Assembly: GCF_024700885.2 (NCBI RefSeq)
Contig: NZ_CP117016.1
Strand: one strand, 5' to 3'
DNA length: 64,000 nt
DNA from: Escherichia coli
Lineage (GTDB): Bacteria > Pseudomonadota > Gammaproteobacteria > Enterobacterales > Enterobacteriaceae
The notes beneath the pieces are model-generated. The model saw nothing but the letters and a program-made list of their open reading frames with translations. It did not search any database and was not told the DNA's origin. Each line of letters starts with the position of its first letter. Position 1 is the stretch's first letter. The position numbers and the translations under genes were made by a program. This document shows, piece after piece, positions 25,838 through 38,154 of the stretch.

Positions 25838-25913
25838 GCCGATATAGCTCAGTTGGTAGAGCAGCGCATTCGTAATGCGAAGGTCGTAGGTTCGACTCCT
25901 ATTATCGGCACCA
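25838..25913 (+). tRNA. thrW: tRNA-Thr (anticodon CGU)
   Basis: GCCGATATAGCTCAGTTGGTAGAGCAGCGCATTCGTAATGCGAAGGTCGTAGGTTCGACTCCTATTATCGGCACCA; cloverleaf with CGT anticodon; integration site for the downstream island. Confidence 0.95.
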
Positions 25914-26077
25914 TCACCTAGTTTTCCCAAGTCAACCCACATCAACAAAATCATTTAAAAACATATATATTACGTTGTTTTCATACGTTTGAGGTCAACC
26001 CTTGTCTCTTGAAATCAACACGCGGTTGGGGGCACAATCAGGGGCATGTTCTGTTCGGTCTAGGAAATGTGCCCCCA

Positions 26078-27268
26078 ATGATGCTGAATGCCCGCAAGGT
26101 TGAAGCTGCGAAAGGAAAAGAGAAGAGCTACAAGCTGTTTGATGGAGGTGGCCTATATCTTCAGGTCGAACCTAATGGCTCGCGTTACTGGCGTATGAAA
26201 TACCGTTTTGCTGGTAAAGAGAAACGATTGTCCTTTGGTGTTTATCCAACAGTCACACTTGCTGATGCCAGACAAAAACGAGAAGACGCGAAGAAACTAC
26301 TCGCAGCAGGTGAAGATCCCGGCGAAGTCAAAAAAGCCAAAAAGCAGGCTTTAAATGCAGCGATTGAGACACTTAACCCATTCAGAGAAGTGGCGTTAGA
26401 GTGGCACAAAATGAAATCACCCAAATGGTCTGAGGGCTATGCTTCCGACATCATTGAGGCATTCGAGAAAGACATTTTCCCGCATATTGGGCACAGACCT
26501 ATAGCTGATATTCAGCCCCTTGAACTGCTTGAAGTTCTGAGATTGATAGAAGCTCGAGGCGCTATGGAGAAAGCGAAGAAAGTCCGTCAGCGATGCGGTG
26601 AAGTTTTTCGCTATGCCATCGTAACGGGTAGGGCAATCTACAATCCGGCACCGGATCTTGCCAGTGCGATGCAAGGACATGAAGCAGTCCACTATCCATT
26701 CCTCAAAGCCAACGAACTACCGGAGTTCTTTAATGCCCTTAATTCTTATTCAGGAAGTCCAATTGTATTGTTGGGGGCGCATTTACTTATCCTGACAGGT
26801 CTACGAACTGGAGAACTACGAGCAGGTGAGTGGCGAGAGGTGGATTTTGATAATGCGGTGTGGGAGATCCCAAAAGAACGTATGAAAATGCGTAGGAGCC
26901 ATATTGTCCCGTTGTCAAAACAAGCATTATCCCATCTCAAAAGTTTGAAAGAACTAACTGGGAACTACCCGCTGATGTTCCCTGGACGCAACGATCCTAG
27001 CAAATTTATGAGTGAAGCAAGCATTAATCAGGTGTTTAAACGTATTGGATATGCAGGGCGTGTTACGGGGCATGGTTTCAGGCATACGATGAGTACAATC
27101 CTACATGAGAAAGGATTTAACAGCGCTTGGATTGAAACCCAGCTTGCTCATTCGGACAAAAACTCTATTCGTGGAATTTATAACCATGCCCAATATCTCG
27201 AAGGGAGAAGAGAAATGATGCAATGGTATGCTAATTATTTATCTGAGCTAATTGGTACTCATAAATGA
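26078..27268 (+). CDS. P4-type tyrosine integrase (tRNA-targeting)
   Basis: ORF 26009..27268; likely start at MMLNARK; C-terminal catalytic region with HGFRHT and conserved Tyr (RGIYNHAQYLEGRREMMQWY); directly beside thrW. Confidence 0.85.
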   Translation: MMLNARKVEAAKGKEKSYKLFDGGGLYLQVEPNGSRYWRMKYRFAGKEKRLSFGVYPTVTLADARQKREDAKKLLAAGEDPGEVKKAKKQALNAAIETLNPFREVALEWHKMKSPKWSEGYASDIIEAFEKDIFPHIGHRPIADIQPLELLEVLRLIEARGAMEKAKKVRQRCGEVFRYAIVTGRAIYNPAPDLASAMQGHEAVHYPFLKANELPEFFNALNSYSGSPIVLLGAHLLILTGLRTGELRAGEWREVDFDNAVWEIPKERMKMRRSHIVPLSKQALSHLKSLKELTGNYPLMFPGRNDPSKFMSEASINQVFKRIGYAGRVTGHGFRHTMSTILHEKGFNSAWIETQLAHSDKNSIRGIYNHAQYLEGRREMMQWYANYLSELIGTHK

Positions 27269-28751: not shown

Positions 28752-28842
28752 ATTGTAAGTATAGTTCGCTTGTAAAAGCAATGCCCGATTGTGCGGGAAC
28801 ACAAATCGGGCATTTAACCAACCGTTATAAGAGGTAACGAAG

Positions 28843-29019
28843 ATGGCTAAACAGAAGTGTACTTGGTTATTTGCGGCGATCAACCGCAGTCAACGCAATG
28901 CCCGTCCTGTGATGTTAAGGATCACCGCAGATAACGAGCGGTCAGCGCGGCGCAGACTTGCCCCGGACTATGTACTGAGCTTTGCCGGGCGCATTCCCTG
29001 CGGAGGTGAACATGCGTAA
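28843..29019 (+). CDS. small hypothetical protein (58 aa), first ORF of the rightward early transcript
   Basis: ATG with GAGG 8 nt upstream; MAKQKCTWLFAAINRSQRNARPVMLRITADNERSARRRLAPDYVLSFAGRIPCGGEHA; not in the ORF track (<60 aa). Confidence 0.3.
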   Translation: MAKQKCTWLFAAINRSQRNARPVMLRITADNERSARRRLAPDYVLSFAGRIPCGGEHA

Positions 29020-35289: not shown

Positions 35290-35520
35290 TATAATGCTCC
35301 TTACGCGTTATGGCATAGTTATATGCTAGTCGGGCGATTAGCCAGACTCGAACTTATTGAACGGTATTAGGGTTGCGCTTGGTGTGCCTCTGGATTGCAC
35401 TCCATGCTGTCGCGCAATCCAGAGGCACACCAAGCGCTTCCTTTAGGTAAGTGAGTAAAAACAGCACCTTCTTCGATTTATGATGAAGGTGCTGCAATCG
35501 TAACGTTTTTTGTATACACG
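35290..35520 (+). ncRNA. candidate retron msr-msd non-coding RNA
   Basis: Non-coding stretch directly upstream of the effector-RT pair with a perfect 24-bp stem (35375-35398 / 35414-35437, 15-nt loop) and a second 10-bp stem (35462-35471 / 35485-35494); exact ends and a1/a2 repeats not resolved. Confidence 0.55.
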
Positions 35521-35529
35521 GATAGTATA

Positions 35530-36498
35530 GTGGCTGAGACATACGAAGATAAAGTTGCTAATCATGTTTCAGAGTGGGAAATGGAAAATTTCCGTGTATG
35601 TTATGATGATCAGGTTATTTTCTTATGTGGTGCGGAAGTACTTCCTCAAGGAAGTGTTCAGACTTCAATGAGAGGGCATTTTTATCACTATTGCCTGAAT
35701 AAAAATAAAGATATAGCTGATAAAATAATTCTTGCCGAAAACTTCAAAAAATATCTTCAAAATAATCATTATCCAGACTTAATAACTTTTGAGCATGATG
35801 TTGCAAGTATATCTAGTTTAGTTGTTATTTTCTTGGAAAGCAGTGGTTCAATTGCTGAGTTAGGTGTTTTCTGTAATATTAGTGATGTCAATAAAAAATT
35901 ATTGATATTTGTTCCATCAGATGAAGTTGAAGGTGACAAGAAAGAGTCTTTCATTTACTTAGGGCCTTTATTGTTTTTAAAAGAAAAGGTCAATGAAAAA
36001 GCATTTAAGATTTATCCAAAACCCACTAATGGTTCTGATTACTCCGAGCATTTAGAGATTATGGCTGATGACTTGGCTGAACTATTACCTAGAAGTGGTA
36101 AGTTTGAAAGCTTCGATCCTGACAATTTAGGGCATATAGCTTTTCTTATATGCAGAATTGTGCATTTAGTAATGCCTATTAAGCTAAAGGAAATATTAAA
36201 TTGTTTAAAAATAATAGGTATCAATAAATATACTCTGACTGAGGTTGAAAGAATTTTGTTTTTATTGGAAACATTGGGTTTTATAAATATTTATCCGTAT
36301 GGCGATTTAAAATACTATTATTCAATGCAAGCCAGGCAAAATCTTAAATTAGGGAAAAATAAAACCGGATTCACAATCGATGAGGCTGGTATTTTTACTG
36401 ATATTAGTGTTTTTATCAATGACAATAAATTATGTAGTGATAAAAAAAGACGGCTGGTTTTGAAAGGCATTAAGGAGAAGCATAATGGACATAATTAA
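35530..36498 (+). CDS. retron effector candidate: nucleoside 2-deoxyribosyltransferase-like (NDT-like) protein with C-terminal putative DNA-binding region
   Basis: 322 aa (GTG start in the ORF track); Rossmann-like N-terminus with ESSGSIAELG motif resembling the NDT-family catalytic Glu region; overlaps the RT gene by 14 nt; AT-rich. Confidence 0.6.
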   Translation: MAETYEDKVANHVSEWEMENFRVCYDDQVIFLCGAEVLPQGSVQTSMRGHFYHYCLNKNKDIADKIILAENFKKYLQNNHYPDLITFEHDVASISSLVVIFLESSGSIAELGVFCNISDVNKKLLIFVPSDEVEGDKKESFIYLGPLLFLKEKVNEKAFKIYPKPTNGSDYSEHLEIMADDLAELLPRSGKFESFDPDNLGHIAFLICRIVHLVMPIKLKEILNCLKIIGINKYTLTEVERILFLLETLGFINIYPYGDLKYYYSMQARQNLKLGKNKTGFTIDEAGIFTDISVFINDNKLCSDKKRRLVLKGIKEKHNGHN

Positions 36499-37417
36499 AA
36501 AAATCGCAGATGAAACTCTAATGCCGGTATCAAAAGTATCTGCTTTTATATTTACAGCCCCATATAGATATAAAGTATATCCCATCCCCAAAAGGAATGG
36601 TGGGTTTAGGGAGATTGCTCAACCGTCAAGGGCATTAAAGTTTATGCAAAGGATTGTTATTGCTGAACTAGAGAAAGTACTTAAGGTTCATGAAAACGCA
36701 TATGCTTATGTCAAAGGACGTAGTATAAAAGATAATGTGGAAAAGCATCAAAGAAACTCTTATATTTTGAAAGTTGATTTCTGCGACTTTTTTAATAGCA
36801 TAAACCCTTACGACCTTGAGTTATGTTTAAAAAACAATGGGTTAGACTCATTGTTAAGCTCACAAGAATTATTGAATAAACTTTTTTTCTATAAGAAAAG
36901 TAAAAGAGGTGCTTTATCAATGAGCATCGGGGCACCTAGTTCTCCATTTTTGTCAAATGCGATTATGTATAAGTTTGATTCAGTCATTAGTGATATGTGT
37001 TCAAATAAAAATATTACTTATACAAGATATGCTGATGATCTTACATTTTCTACTAATGAAAAAGGTATTTTGTATGAATTCATACATGAAATAGATAAAG
37101 TTCTTGAGGAGATAGATAGTCCTAAATTAAAACTAAATGATAAGAAAACCATATTTGCATCTAAAAAATGCAATCGTCATATAACAGGAATTGTTATTAA
37201 TAACGAAGAAAAACTTTCAATTGGTAGAGATAAAAAACGTTACTTAAGTAGTTTAATTCATAAATTCTCGCTTAATGCACTTAATGAGGAAGGAGTTGAA
37301 CATTTAAAAGGGTATTTGGCGTATGTAAATAAAATTGAACCTTCATTCATTAGCAGAATGAAAAGGAAATATGGAGTCGAAGTTGTCAACTCCATAATCA
37401 CATTTAATCCATTATAA
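36485..37417 (+). CDS. retron-type reverse transcriptase
   Basis: 310 aa; RT motifs YRYKVYPIPKRNGGFREIAQPSRALK, VDFCDFFNSI, GAPSSPFLSNAIM, TRYADDLTFS (YADD active site), HITGIVI; distant resemblance to the Ec86 RT. Confidence 0.9.
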   Translation: MDIIKKIADETLMPVSKVSAFIFTAPYRYKVYPIPKRNGGFREIAQPSRALKFMQRIVIAELEKVLKVHENAYAYVKGRSIKDNVEKHQRNSYILKVDFCDFFNSINPYDLELCLKNNGLDSLLSSQELLNKLFFYKKSKRGALSMSIGAPSSPFLSNAIMYKFDSVISDMCSNKNITYTRYADDLTFSTNEKGILYEFIHEIDKVLEEIDSPKLKLNDKKTIFASKKCNRHITGIVINNEEKLSIGRDKKRYLSSLIHKFSLNALNEEGVEHLKGYLAYVNKIEPSFISRMKRKYGVEVVNSIITFNPL

Positions 37418-37894
37418 ATGTGAACTTATTATATTTATAATGGTTGTGCTTTTTTCTTGTACCTTAGGGGTGTAAAAGAATGTCATCATGAAGATAATTA
37501 AAAAATGAATGGCAATAAGAGTAATAGGTAACATTTTTTCAATATCACTTAAATGGCGATGCCTTTTTTGTGTAATAACTTCCTCTTCTCTTTTGAAAGG
37601 AGTTATACCTATCTTGACCTCCATCTCCTGAATTACTGTAAACTTAGCAGCATTAATTCTTTTATAGGAAGTAATTAGATTTATCCAATAGATATTAATT
37701 ACGACTCCAGCGAGAGAGATTAAGATTACCCAAATAGGCTGTATTGTTGGCTTTAAAGAAAAATATCCAACAAGCGGTAAAATAGAAGAGTTTAAGGCTA
37801 ATAAAAATGTATTTGACTTAAGTCTTCGATCACTTATTCTATCCGCCATCTCAACGCATGTTTTATATATTTCTATGACTTTATCATCCGTCAC
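37412..37894 (-). CDS. small three-TM membrane protein of unknown function (candidate defence/abortive-infection effector)
   Basis: 160 aa with three predicted hydrophobic helices; AT-rich; convergent with the RT gene, its stop codon overlapping the RT's last codon. Confidence 0.55.
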   Translation of the reverse strand: MTDDKVIEIYKTCVEMADRISDRRLKSNTFLLALNSSILPLVGYFSLKPTIQPIWVILISLAGVVINIYWINLITSYKRINAAKFTVIQEMEVKIGITPFKREEEVITQKRHRHLSDIEKMLPITLIAIHFLIIFMMTFFYTPKVQEKSTTIINIISSHL

Positions 37895-38137
37895 TAATAG
37901 TATCCTTATAAATTTCTGAGTTGTTCAAATAAATGTTATCATATATTTTTATCAACGTAATATGTATTTTTACGTATTTTTAACTGTGAGAGATACATAG
38001 TGATTGTTGGGTGCATGTACAATCCTTGATACTTAACAATGAAAGCGTAGTTGTGGGGGGGGGGCATATTTGGGGGCATTACTATTTAATCTTTCTTGAT
38101 TTTTATTATAAAACAACTGGTTGTATTGATGTTTTGT

Positions 38138-38154
38138 TCCTATTATCGCACCAT
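38138..38154 (+). repeat. attR: degenerate direct repeat of the thrW 3' end (island right boundary)
   Basis: tcctattatcg-caccat matches the tRNA 3' end tcctattatcggcaccat with one missing G. Confidence 0.5.

What the first reader, a model, noticed from the sequence alone, without database searches (positions are those of the whole stretch)
38045..38054. G10 homopolymer in the promoter-side region of the 3-TM gene
A run of ten G residues (ttgtGGGGGGGGGGcat) lies about 150 bp upstream of the 3-TM gene start and just inside attR. Tracts of this length are prone to slipped-strand mispairing and could make expression phase-variable, or it may be a sequencing artefact.
Basis: seen in the sequence. 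Interest (0 to 1): 0.25.

Follow-up and report, generated by a model that had tools for sequence, protein, structure and literature searches.

The report
Slippery G-run in integrase binding repeat
The ten-G run is real and its length does drift between E. coli isolates, but it is an expanded copy of a known integrase-binding repeat at the edge of a P4-like satellite prophage, not a promoter element, so it is an ordinary and probably harmless hypermutable tract.

Summary
The G10 run exists at 38055-38064, 10 bases right of the reported coordinates. It is the only G/C run longer than 7 in the window.

It lies in attR of a P4-like satellite integrated at thrW. That satellite carries a type II-A (St85-family) retron plus ripA (8xMP, the "3-TM gene") in the psu-int defence hotspot.

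The run is the G-stretch of the outermost 12-bp P4-type "attP arm sequence repeat" (GTGGGGGCATAT), expanded from G5. Phage P4's GenBank record annotates the same motif in the same five-copy layout. In an element whose integrase is 73% identical, all five copies switch together to GGGGGTA.

Copies of this satellite with zero mismatches in 726 flanking bp carry G5, G6, G7, G9, G10 or G11, so slippage is real and G10 is not an artefact. Within one host clone, however, 19 of 21 genomes have exactly G10.

The tract is 161 bp upstream of the ripA start and about 117 bp beyond the best predicted -10. Homology shared with elements carrying other cargo begins at the repeat pair, whose first copy holds the run, so the tract belongs to the att module.

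Phase-variable ripA expression is therefore unsupported. The most likely reading is a near-neutral expansion on the distal side of the outermost arm site. Interest is low.

The parts
38055..38064 (+). G10 homopolymer (the finding). Polymorphic: G5, G6, G7, G9, G10, G11 in otherwise identical copies.
38053..38069 (+). P-arm repeat 1 (outermost Int arm-type repeat), GT-G10-CATAT. The ancestral 12-mer is GTGGGGGCATAT, the counterpart of P4 GTGGGGGCACAA.
38070..38081 (+). P-arm repeat 2, TTGGGGGCATTA, 12 bp after repeat 1. Its G-run is G5 in every copy of the satellite and in every thrW-type arm examined.
38138..38153 (+). attR core TCCTATTATCGCACCA, a copy of the tRNA-Thr 3' end with one G missing.
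25838..25913 (+). tRNA-Thr(CGT) thrW. Its 3' end (25897-25913) is the attL core.
26026..26049 (+). P'-arm repeats 1 and 2, TTGGGGGCACAA and TCAGGGGCATGT, tandem with a 12-bp period.
26067..26078 (-). Inverted P'-arm repeat (TTGGGGGCACAT on the minus strand) abutting the int ATG at 26078. P4 has the same arrangement.
26078..27268 (+). P4-family tyrosine integrase with an Arm-DNA-binding domain, 43% identical to P4 Int.
Convergent with the retron RT gene and overlapping it by 6 bp.
37370..37396 (-). Terminator-like hairpin plus T-run just after the ripA stop, suggesting ripA is its own transcription unit (prediction only).
37933..37955 (-). Best predicted ripA promoter elements: -35 TTGATA 37955-37950, and TG-extended -10 TAACAT 37938-37933. 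Weak, prediction only. The tract lies 117 bp further upstream.
35296..37417 (+). Neighbouring cargo: type II-A (St85-family) retron. msr 35296-35365, msd region about 35368-35486, NDT-like effector 35530-36498, RT 36485-37417.

Best explanation
The G10 run is a slipped-strand expansion of the G5 stretch inside the outermost P4-type integrase arm-binding repeat (P-arm repeat 1, ancestrally GTGGGGGCATAT). That repeat belongs to the attachment site of a thrW-integrating P4-like satellite prophage.

Shown:
- The motif, its five-copy layout and its spacing to the core match the annotated attP arm repeats of phage P4.
- All five copies co-vary with integrase type.
- The tract is by far the most variable site in the element.

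Inferred:
- The extra Gs were added on the side of the GGGGGCAT motif that faces away from the core. They therefore leave the motif, the 12-bp register to repeat 2 and the distance to the core unchanged.
- They only push the cargo-specific ripA upstream DNA 5 bp further away.
- The expansion is thus tolerated as a near-neutral length polymorphism that, once long, keeps drifting by +/-1.
- It is not a switch for ripA expression.
For: (1) Anatomy: the tract is at 38055-38064, followed by CATATTT-GGGGGCAT.

(2) Allelic series: G11, G10, G9, G6 and G5 in complete E. coli genomes, and G5, G6, G7 and G10 in further assemblies with the identical RipA. Twelve copies have 0 mismatches in 643+83 flanking bp yet carry 6 different lengths across 4 chromosomal flank types.

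(3) Ten distinct P-arm sequence classes at thrW-type attR sites keep the pair GGGG(G)(C/T)A(C/T)-N4-GGGGG(C/T)AT 57-60 bp from the core, while everything else diverges. Similarity between elements begins at that repeat pair.

(4) Co-variation: the AST240 element (Int 73% identical) has GGGGGTA in all five copies, two in the P arm and two direct plus one inverted in the P' arm.

(5) P4's GenBank record annotates GTGGGGGCACAA, AAGGGGGCATAT, TTGGGGGCATAA, TTGGGGGCATCT and inverted TTGGGGGCACAT as 'attP arm sequence repeat'. Their offsets to the core are 77 and 65 bp, against 78 and 66 bp here.

(6) Int has the Arm-DNA-bind_3 domain and is 43% identical to P4 Int.

(7) Only repeat 1 varies. Repeat 2 is G5 in every copy of the satellite and in every thrW-type arm examined.

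(8) Long expansion is lineage-specific. In 115 arm pairs from IMG/VR the first-copy run is G5 in 102, G6 in 12 and G7 in 1. No enterobacterial hit with G8 or more was found among 100,044 species genomes.

(9) Promoter scans place nothing at the tract. Rfam finds no RNA family there.
Against: - No binding, excision or expression data exist for this element, so neutrality is an inference from position.
- The ripA transcription start is unknown. Predicted promoters in this 28-33% GC DNA are weak and unreliable.
- G10 was found in a single host clone, so hitch-hiking and selection for G10 cannot be told apart.
- 19 of 21 clone members share exactly G10. This could reflect recent ancestry, a modest slippage rate in a mismatch-repair-proficient host, or stabilising selection.
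Confidence: 0.78

Rival explanations
1. Phase-variable promoter: changes in G-run length switch or tune transcription of ripA, for example by altering the spacing between an upstream factor and the promoter.
For: The tract is upstream of ripA on the promoter side and its length is polymorphic. ripA has no other obvious strong promoter.
Against: - The tract starts 161 bp from the start codon and about 117 bp beyond the best predicted -10. No -35/-10 pair spans it.
- The DNA beyond the tract is only the att arm and the host chromosome, so there is no obvious activator site to re-space.
- The tract sits in the conserved att module, while the ripA-specific DNA ends at its left edge.
- 19 of 21 clone members are fixed at G10.
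- G5, G6 and G7 alleles coexist with an identical ripA in other hosts, with no sign of on/off coupling.
Confidence: 0.07
2. Mobility tuning: expansion within arm repeat 1 changes Int occupancy or intasome geometry, so tract length sets how readily the satellite excises or integrates.
For: The tract is inside a repeat that matches the P4 arm repeats in motif, layout and spacing. The thrW site shows element turnover within the same host clone.
Against: - The GGGGGCAT motif, the 12-bp register to repeat 2 and the distance to the core are all preserved.
- The two bases 5' of the G5 are variable among the five P4 arm repeats flanking the core (GT, AA, TT, TT, TT), so replacing them with GG is unlikely to matter.
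- Long expansions do not recur in other P4-like arms.
Confidence: 0.08
3. Sequencing or assembly artefact: the run length is miscalled and there is no real polymorphism.
For: Homopolymers are error-prone on long-read platforms. G9 and G11 are each seen in a single assembly within a G10 clone.
Against: - G10 is reproduced in 19 complete genomes, 2 other assemblies and a metagenome contig from different laboratories.
- G6 is seen in assemblies from three different strains, and G5 in at least three.
- The alleles track chromosomal flank types.
Confidence: 0.03
4. Structural DNA element: G10 plus the neighbouring G5 forms a G-quadruplex or other non-B structure that affects replication, transcription or recombination at attR.
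For: Two G-runs lie within 25 bp on one strand.
Against: - Only two G-runs are present.
- The ancestral and widespread state is G5+G5, explained by the arm repeats.
- No conservation of a long run was seen elsewhere.
- This reading was not tested directly.
Confidence: 0.02

Closest known systems
Phage P4 attP arm sequence repeats (annotated in NC_001609. From my memory, unchecked here, they were first described by Pierson & Kahn 1987, J Mol Biol 196:487).
   Same: - Same GGGGGCA(C/T)-centred 12-mer.
- Same layout: two tandem copies on the arm away from int, and two tandem plus one inverted copy at the int start.
- Same spacing to the core (77 and 65 bp in P4, 78 and 66 bp here).
- The core is the 3' end of a tRNA gene.
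- The integrase has an arm-binding domain and is 43% identical.
   Different: - The target tRNA is thrW, whereas (from memory) P4 integrates at leuX, so the core sequence differs.
- The first repeat carries G10 instead of G5.
- Int binding has not been shown for this element.
Homopolymer contingency loci, i.e. phase-variable promoters or ORFs such as poly-G/poly-C tracts in Neisseria, Campylobacter and Bordetella (background knowledge; reviews and studies listed).
   Same: A G/C mononucleotide run long enough to slip, with length alleles differing by single units among very close relatives.
   Different: - Not in an ORF and not within or next to a predicted core promoter.
- Nearly fixed at one length within a clone.
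- Sits in a recombination site rather than a regulatory region.
- The host is E. coli, where, to my knowledge, such switches are uncommon.
P4-like satellite defence hotspot between psu and int (Rousset et al. 2022, PMC9122126).
   Same: The retron and ripA cargo occupies exactly this hotspot. Sister elements with the same backbone carry DRT3 or DprA cargo instead.
   Different: The hotspot concept concerns the cargo. The G-run lies at the cargo/att boundary and is not discussed in the passages of that paper that I read.

Membership tests
P4-type attP arm repeat (Int arm-type binding site) | 12-bp unit centred on GGGGGCA(C/T) | tested here: met
   Window repeats GT-G10-CATAT, TTGGGGGCATTA, TTGGGGGCACAA, TCAGGGGCATGT and inverted TTGGGGGCACAT, against the P4 annotated repeats.
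P4-type attP arm repeat (Int arm-type binding site) | Five-copy layout: two tandem copies on the far arm, and two tandem plus one inverted copy at the int start, at P4-like distances from the core | tested here: met
   Offsets of 78 and 66 bp here against 77 and 65 bp in P4. The inverted copy abuts the int ATG in both.
P4-type attP arm repeat (Int arm-type binding site) | Adjacent tyrosine integrase with an arm-DNA-binding domain, related to P4 Int | tested here: met
   PF13356 at E=8e-28. 43% identity to P4 Int, E=3e-112.
P4-type attP arm repeat (Int arm-type binding site) | Repeat sequence co-varies with the integrase across both arms | tested here: met
   All five copies read GGGGGTA in the AST240 element, whose Int is 73% identical.
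P4-type attP arm repeat (Int arm-type binding site) | Physical binding by Int (footprint or EMSA) and a requirement for recombination | not testable with these tools
   No experimental data were available.
Homopolymer phase-variable (contingency) locus | Tract length polymorphic among close relatives | tested here: met
   G5, G6, G7, G9, G10 and G11 with identical flanks.
Homopolymer phase-variable (contingency) locus | Tract lies in an ORF or within or adjacent to the core promoter, so that length changes switch expression | tested here: not met
   The tract is 161 bp from the start codon and about 117 bp beyond the best predicted -10, and no promoter pair spans it. ORFs crossing it are not conserved across the alleles. 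This rests on prediction only, with no TSS data.
Homopolymer phase-variable (contingency) locus | High-frequency reversible switching within a clonal population | not testable with these tools
   Only consensus assemblies were available. 19 G10, 1 G9 and 1 G11 in one clone argues against very high rates but cannot measure them.
P4-like satellite (context) | int, alpha primase (TOPRIM/DUF927), psu, delta and sid-like genes, a tRNA att site, and cargo between psu and int | tested here: met
   RefSeq annotation of the identical locus and Rousset et al. 2022.

The most novel reading that the evidence does not exclude
The G-run in the outermost arm repeat acts as a heritable, reversible dial. Its length changes Int occupancy or local DNA geometry at attR. 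That would tune either how often the satellite excises (phase-variable mobility of a defence-carrying satellite) or how strongly the adjacent ripA membrane-protein gene is transcribed.
Probability: 0.06. Interest if true: 0.5.

Novelty: new member of a known kind. Interest (0 to 1): 0.15.

Why it matters
It matters little. The finding is mainly a cautionary example: a striking homopolymer next to a defence gene turns out to be a drifting expansion of a recombinase-binding repeat.

It has three modest uses:
- The tract is a fast-evolving marker for tracing this retron/ripA satellite within an E. coli clone.
- The pattern of variation (only the distal edge of the outermost arm repeat expands, while the inner repeat and the spacing stay fixed) is a natural readout of which parts of a P4-type att arm are constrained.
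- The GGGGGCA to GGGGGTA co-variation with integrase type gives a clean natural pair for studying arm-site specificity.

Tried and rejected
- Consensus promoter/terminator scan and a PWM sigma-70 scan: no promoter at or spanning the tract. Candidates near ripA are weak, so the promoter position remains a prediction.
- Rfam at permissive thresholds over 25-40 kb: nothing at the tract, only thrW, the retron msr and an STnc400-like hit on msd.
- Literature searches for RipA/8xMP, PDB sequence search, PHROGs, PADLOC and NCBIfam: no functional information on the membrane protein.
- Whole-window count of GGGGGCAY: 6 observed against 4.5 expected. The motif is therefore not enriched overall. The argument rests on position, conservation, co-variation and the P4 annotation instead.
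- Small ORFs crossing the tract (46 aa on the minus strand, 180 aa on the plus strand): rejected as coding, because the G5, G6 and G10 alleles shift the frame and the 180-aa ORF runs across attR into host DNA.
- Metagenome scan: 5 hits, of which only one (L028, G10) was the real element. The other four were chance matches.
- Genome-wide scan for G8 or longer first copies: nine hits, all exactly G8 and all in non-enterobacterial genomes. Most are GC-rich repeats unrelated to att sites.
- One paper reading failed on a too-short search term and was not repeated.

Full report
**Observation.** It occupies 38055-38064, not 38045-38054. It is the only G or C homopolymer longer than 7 in 64 kb. An i.i.d. 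model at window composition expects about 0.12 such runs, and the run sits in a 33% GC island where the expectation is lower still. It begins 161 bp upstream of the GTG start (37894, minus strand) of a 160-aa membrane-protein gene. It ends 74 bp left of the attR core.

**Context.**
- tRNA-Thr(CGT) thrW lies at 25838-25913.
- It is followed by a P4-family integrase, an Icd-like protein, an alpha-type primase (TOPRIM/DUF927), a sid-like gene, psu and delta (RefSeq annotation of a 100% identical locus).
- Next comes a 33% GC cargo block holding a type II-A, St85-family retron: Rfam msr at 35296-35365, an NDT-like effector at 35530-36498 and the RT at 36485-37417.
- A convergent gene follows, which RefSeq names "RipA family octameric membrane protein" and which matches Pfam 8xMP (PF24838).
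- The island ends at TCCTATTATCGCACCA (38138-38153), a copy of the tRNA 3' end lacking one G. Beyond it lie a LysR pseudogene fragment and the pao/ecp chromosomal genes.
- This is the psu-int defence hotspot of P4-like satellites described by Rousset et al. 2022 (PMC9122126). Sister elements with a 99% identical backbone carry DRT3 or DprA cargo instead.

**What the tract is.** The G-run is immediately followed by CATATTT-GGGGGCAT. The same GGGG(G)CA(C/T) motif occurs twice, 12 bp apart, just inside attL (26026-26049), and once inverted, abutting the int ATG (26067-26078). Four lines of evidence identify these as integrase arm-type sites.

1. *Conservation.* Ten distinct attR-proximal arm sequences from thrW-type elements with unrelated cargo were compared. 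All keep the tandem pair GGGG(G)(C/T)A(C/T)-N4-GGGGG(C/T)AT 57-60 bp from the core, while the spacer and the outer flank are unrelated. Similarity between elements begins at that repeat pair.
2. *Co-variation.* In E. coli AST240 the element at thrW has an integrase 73% identical to the window's. All five of its copies, on both arms, read GGGGGTA instead of GGGGGCA, at the same positions.
3. *Match to P4.* Phage P4's GenBank record (NC_001609) annotates GTGGGGGCACAA and AAGGGGGCATAT (77 and 65 bp from the core), TTGGGGGCATAA, TTGGGGGCATCT and an inverted TTGGGGGCACAT over the int start as "attP arm sequence repeat". The window's copies lie 78 and 66 bp from its core.
4. *The integrase.* The window's Int has the Arm-DNA-binding domain (PF13356) and is 43% identical to P4 Int, with a strongly conserved N-terminus.

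The G10 is therefore the G5 of the outermost P-arm repeat (ancestrally GTGGGGGCATAT) with five extra G.

**Is the length variable?** Yes.
- Among 23 complete E. coli genomes carrying the whole region, 17 are 100% identical to the window (G10).
- The other six were read directly: G11 (JNE070796), G10 plus one SNP in ripA (JNE21-003), G9 (E700025), G6 (HS30-1), G5 (52F4) and G5 (SY038, a copy 92% identical to the window).
- Further assemblies encoding the identical RipA add G5, G6, G6, G7 and G10, and a metagenome contig adds G10.
- Twelve copies have no mismatch in 643 bp to the left and 83 bp to the right of the tract, yet show six different lengths across four different chromosomal flank types. 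The same set shows only about four substitutions across those 726 sites.
- By my rough count, at least six length changes at one site against about four substitutions over 726 sites puts the tract some three orders of magnitude above the per-site substitution rate.
- G10 itself is not an artefact. The lone G9 and G11 could be homopolymer miscalls.

**How unstable is it?**
- All G9, G10 and G11 carriers belong to one host clone. 24 genomes are at least 99.9% identical over 25 kb of chromosomal flank, and the next best is 98.6%.
- Their satellites are about 100.0% identical over 12.2 kb.
- Within that clone, which was sampled from dogs, humans, chickens, lake water and seawater in several countries, 19 of 21 satellite carriers have exactly G10.
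- That pattern fits occasional slippage in a repair-proficient host. It does not fit a fast on/off switch, although consensus assemblies cannot reveal within-culture heterogeneity.
- Four members of the same clone carry entirely different elements at thrW, so the site turns over.

**Is it a promoter element?** The evidence says no, with the caveat that no transcription start data exist.
- A consensus scan finds no sigma-70 site on the ripA strand.
- A PWM scan puts all the better candidates within about 70 bp of the start codon, for example -35 TTGATA at 37955-37950 and a TG-extended -10 TAACAT at 37938-37933. That leaves the tract about 117 bp further upstream, and no -35/-10 pair spans it.
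- A terminator-like hairpin follows the ripA stop, so ripA is probably its own transcription unit with a promoter in the AT-rich 160 bp.
- The DNA on the far side of the tract is only the att arm and the chromosome, so there is no plausible activator site whose spacing the run could change.
- The small ORFs that cross the tract are not preserved across the alleles.

**Why this site, and why is it tolerated?** This part is inference. The extra Gs lie on the side of the GGGGGCAT motif that faces away from the core. The motif, the 12-bp register to repeat 2 and the distances to the core are therefore untouched. The two bases 5' of the G5 are in any case variable among the five P4 arm repeats that flank the core (GT, AA, TT, TT, TT). 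Repeat 2 is G5 in every copy of the satellite and in every thrW-type arm examined. Expansion at the outer edge only moves cargo DNA, so it escapes the constraint that holds the inner features fixed.

**Is it a general design?** No.
- In 115 distinct tandem arm pairs from IMG/VR viral contigs the first-copy run is G5 in 102, G6 in 12 and G7 in 1.
- A scan of one genome from each of 100,044 species for G8 or longer gave nine hits. All are exactly G8, none is enterobacterial, and most are GC-rich repeats.
- One of the nine (L156, a Deltaproteobacteria MAG) is a convincing P'-arm next to a tmRNA gene.

**Verdict.** The slippage idea is right, the artefact idea is wrong for G10, and the phase-variable-expression idea is unsupported. 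The feature is a lineage-specific, probably near-neutral expansion inside a known kind of element, a P4-type Int arm repeat. It is a new example of a known kind and of low interest. The residual novel reading, tract-length tuning of satellite excision or of ripA expression, has roughly a 6% probability.

Noticed in passing
window 37412-37894 (minus strand); loci L021-L027: ripA/8xMP has no hit in PADLOC, PHROGs, NCBIfam or PDB sequences. Yet this exact protein is indexed in 3,555 blocks of the public collection. In all 7 contexts shown it sits tail-to-tail with, and overlaps by 6 bp, the St85-family retron RT and its STM3845 effector. It may be an uncharacterised accessory of this retron or an independent defence gene.
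   Followed up: partly
L018/L019 (E. coli AST240, thrW element) against window 26026-26078 and 38053-38081: All five arm repeats switch from GGGGGCA to GGGGGTA in an element whose integrase is 73% identical. L015 and L012a show the same GGGGGTA motif in their P-arm pair. This is a natural specificity pair for the arm-binding domain.
   Followed up: partly
L015-L018 (thrW region in OY754421, GmM066, PCP07014, AST240): Four of the 24 members of one host clone (at least 99.9% identical over 25 kb of flank) carry different elements at thrW: a DprA-cargo P4-like satellite, an HxsABCD/relaxase island, and two PerC/TOPRIM elements. This shows rapid turnover at the site.
   Followed up: partly
window 38148-38153, and the same position in L005-L027: The attR core varies between GCACCA and GGCACCA (one G missing relative to the tRNA), and one copy (L017) reads TCCTATTATCACCA. 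This is a second small length polymorphism at the recombination site.
   Followed up: no
window 35368-35486: The retron msd region matches Rfam STnc400 (53 bits, below the 80-bit gathering score). This suggests that the Salmonella 'sRNA' family overlaps a retron msd.
   Followed up: no
window 37955-37975: Inverted repeat ACGTAA-N9-TTACGT in the ripA upstream region, overlapping the predicted -35. It could be an operator or simply chance in AT-rich DNA.
   Followed up: no
L156 10466-10488 (Deltaproteobacteria MAG SAAX01000028.1): A G8 first-copy arm repeat (GGGGGGGGCATaattGGGGGCAT, then an inverted ATGCCCCC) lies about 140 bp downstream of a tmRNA gene. This is an independent, smaller expansion of the same motif in a distant element.
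   Followed up: partly
window 28777-28848 (minus strand): Weak Rfam SymR-like hit (31.6 bits against a gathering score of 61, E=0.011) in the satellite's early/immunity region. Probably chance.
   Followed up: no
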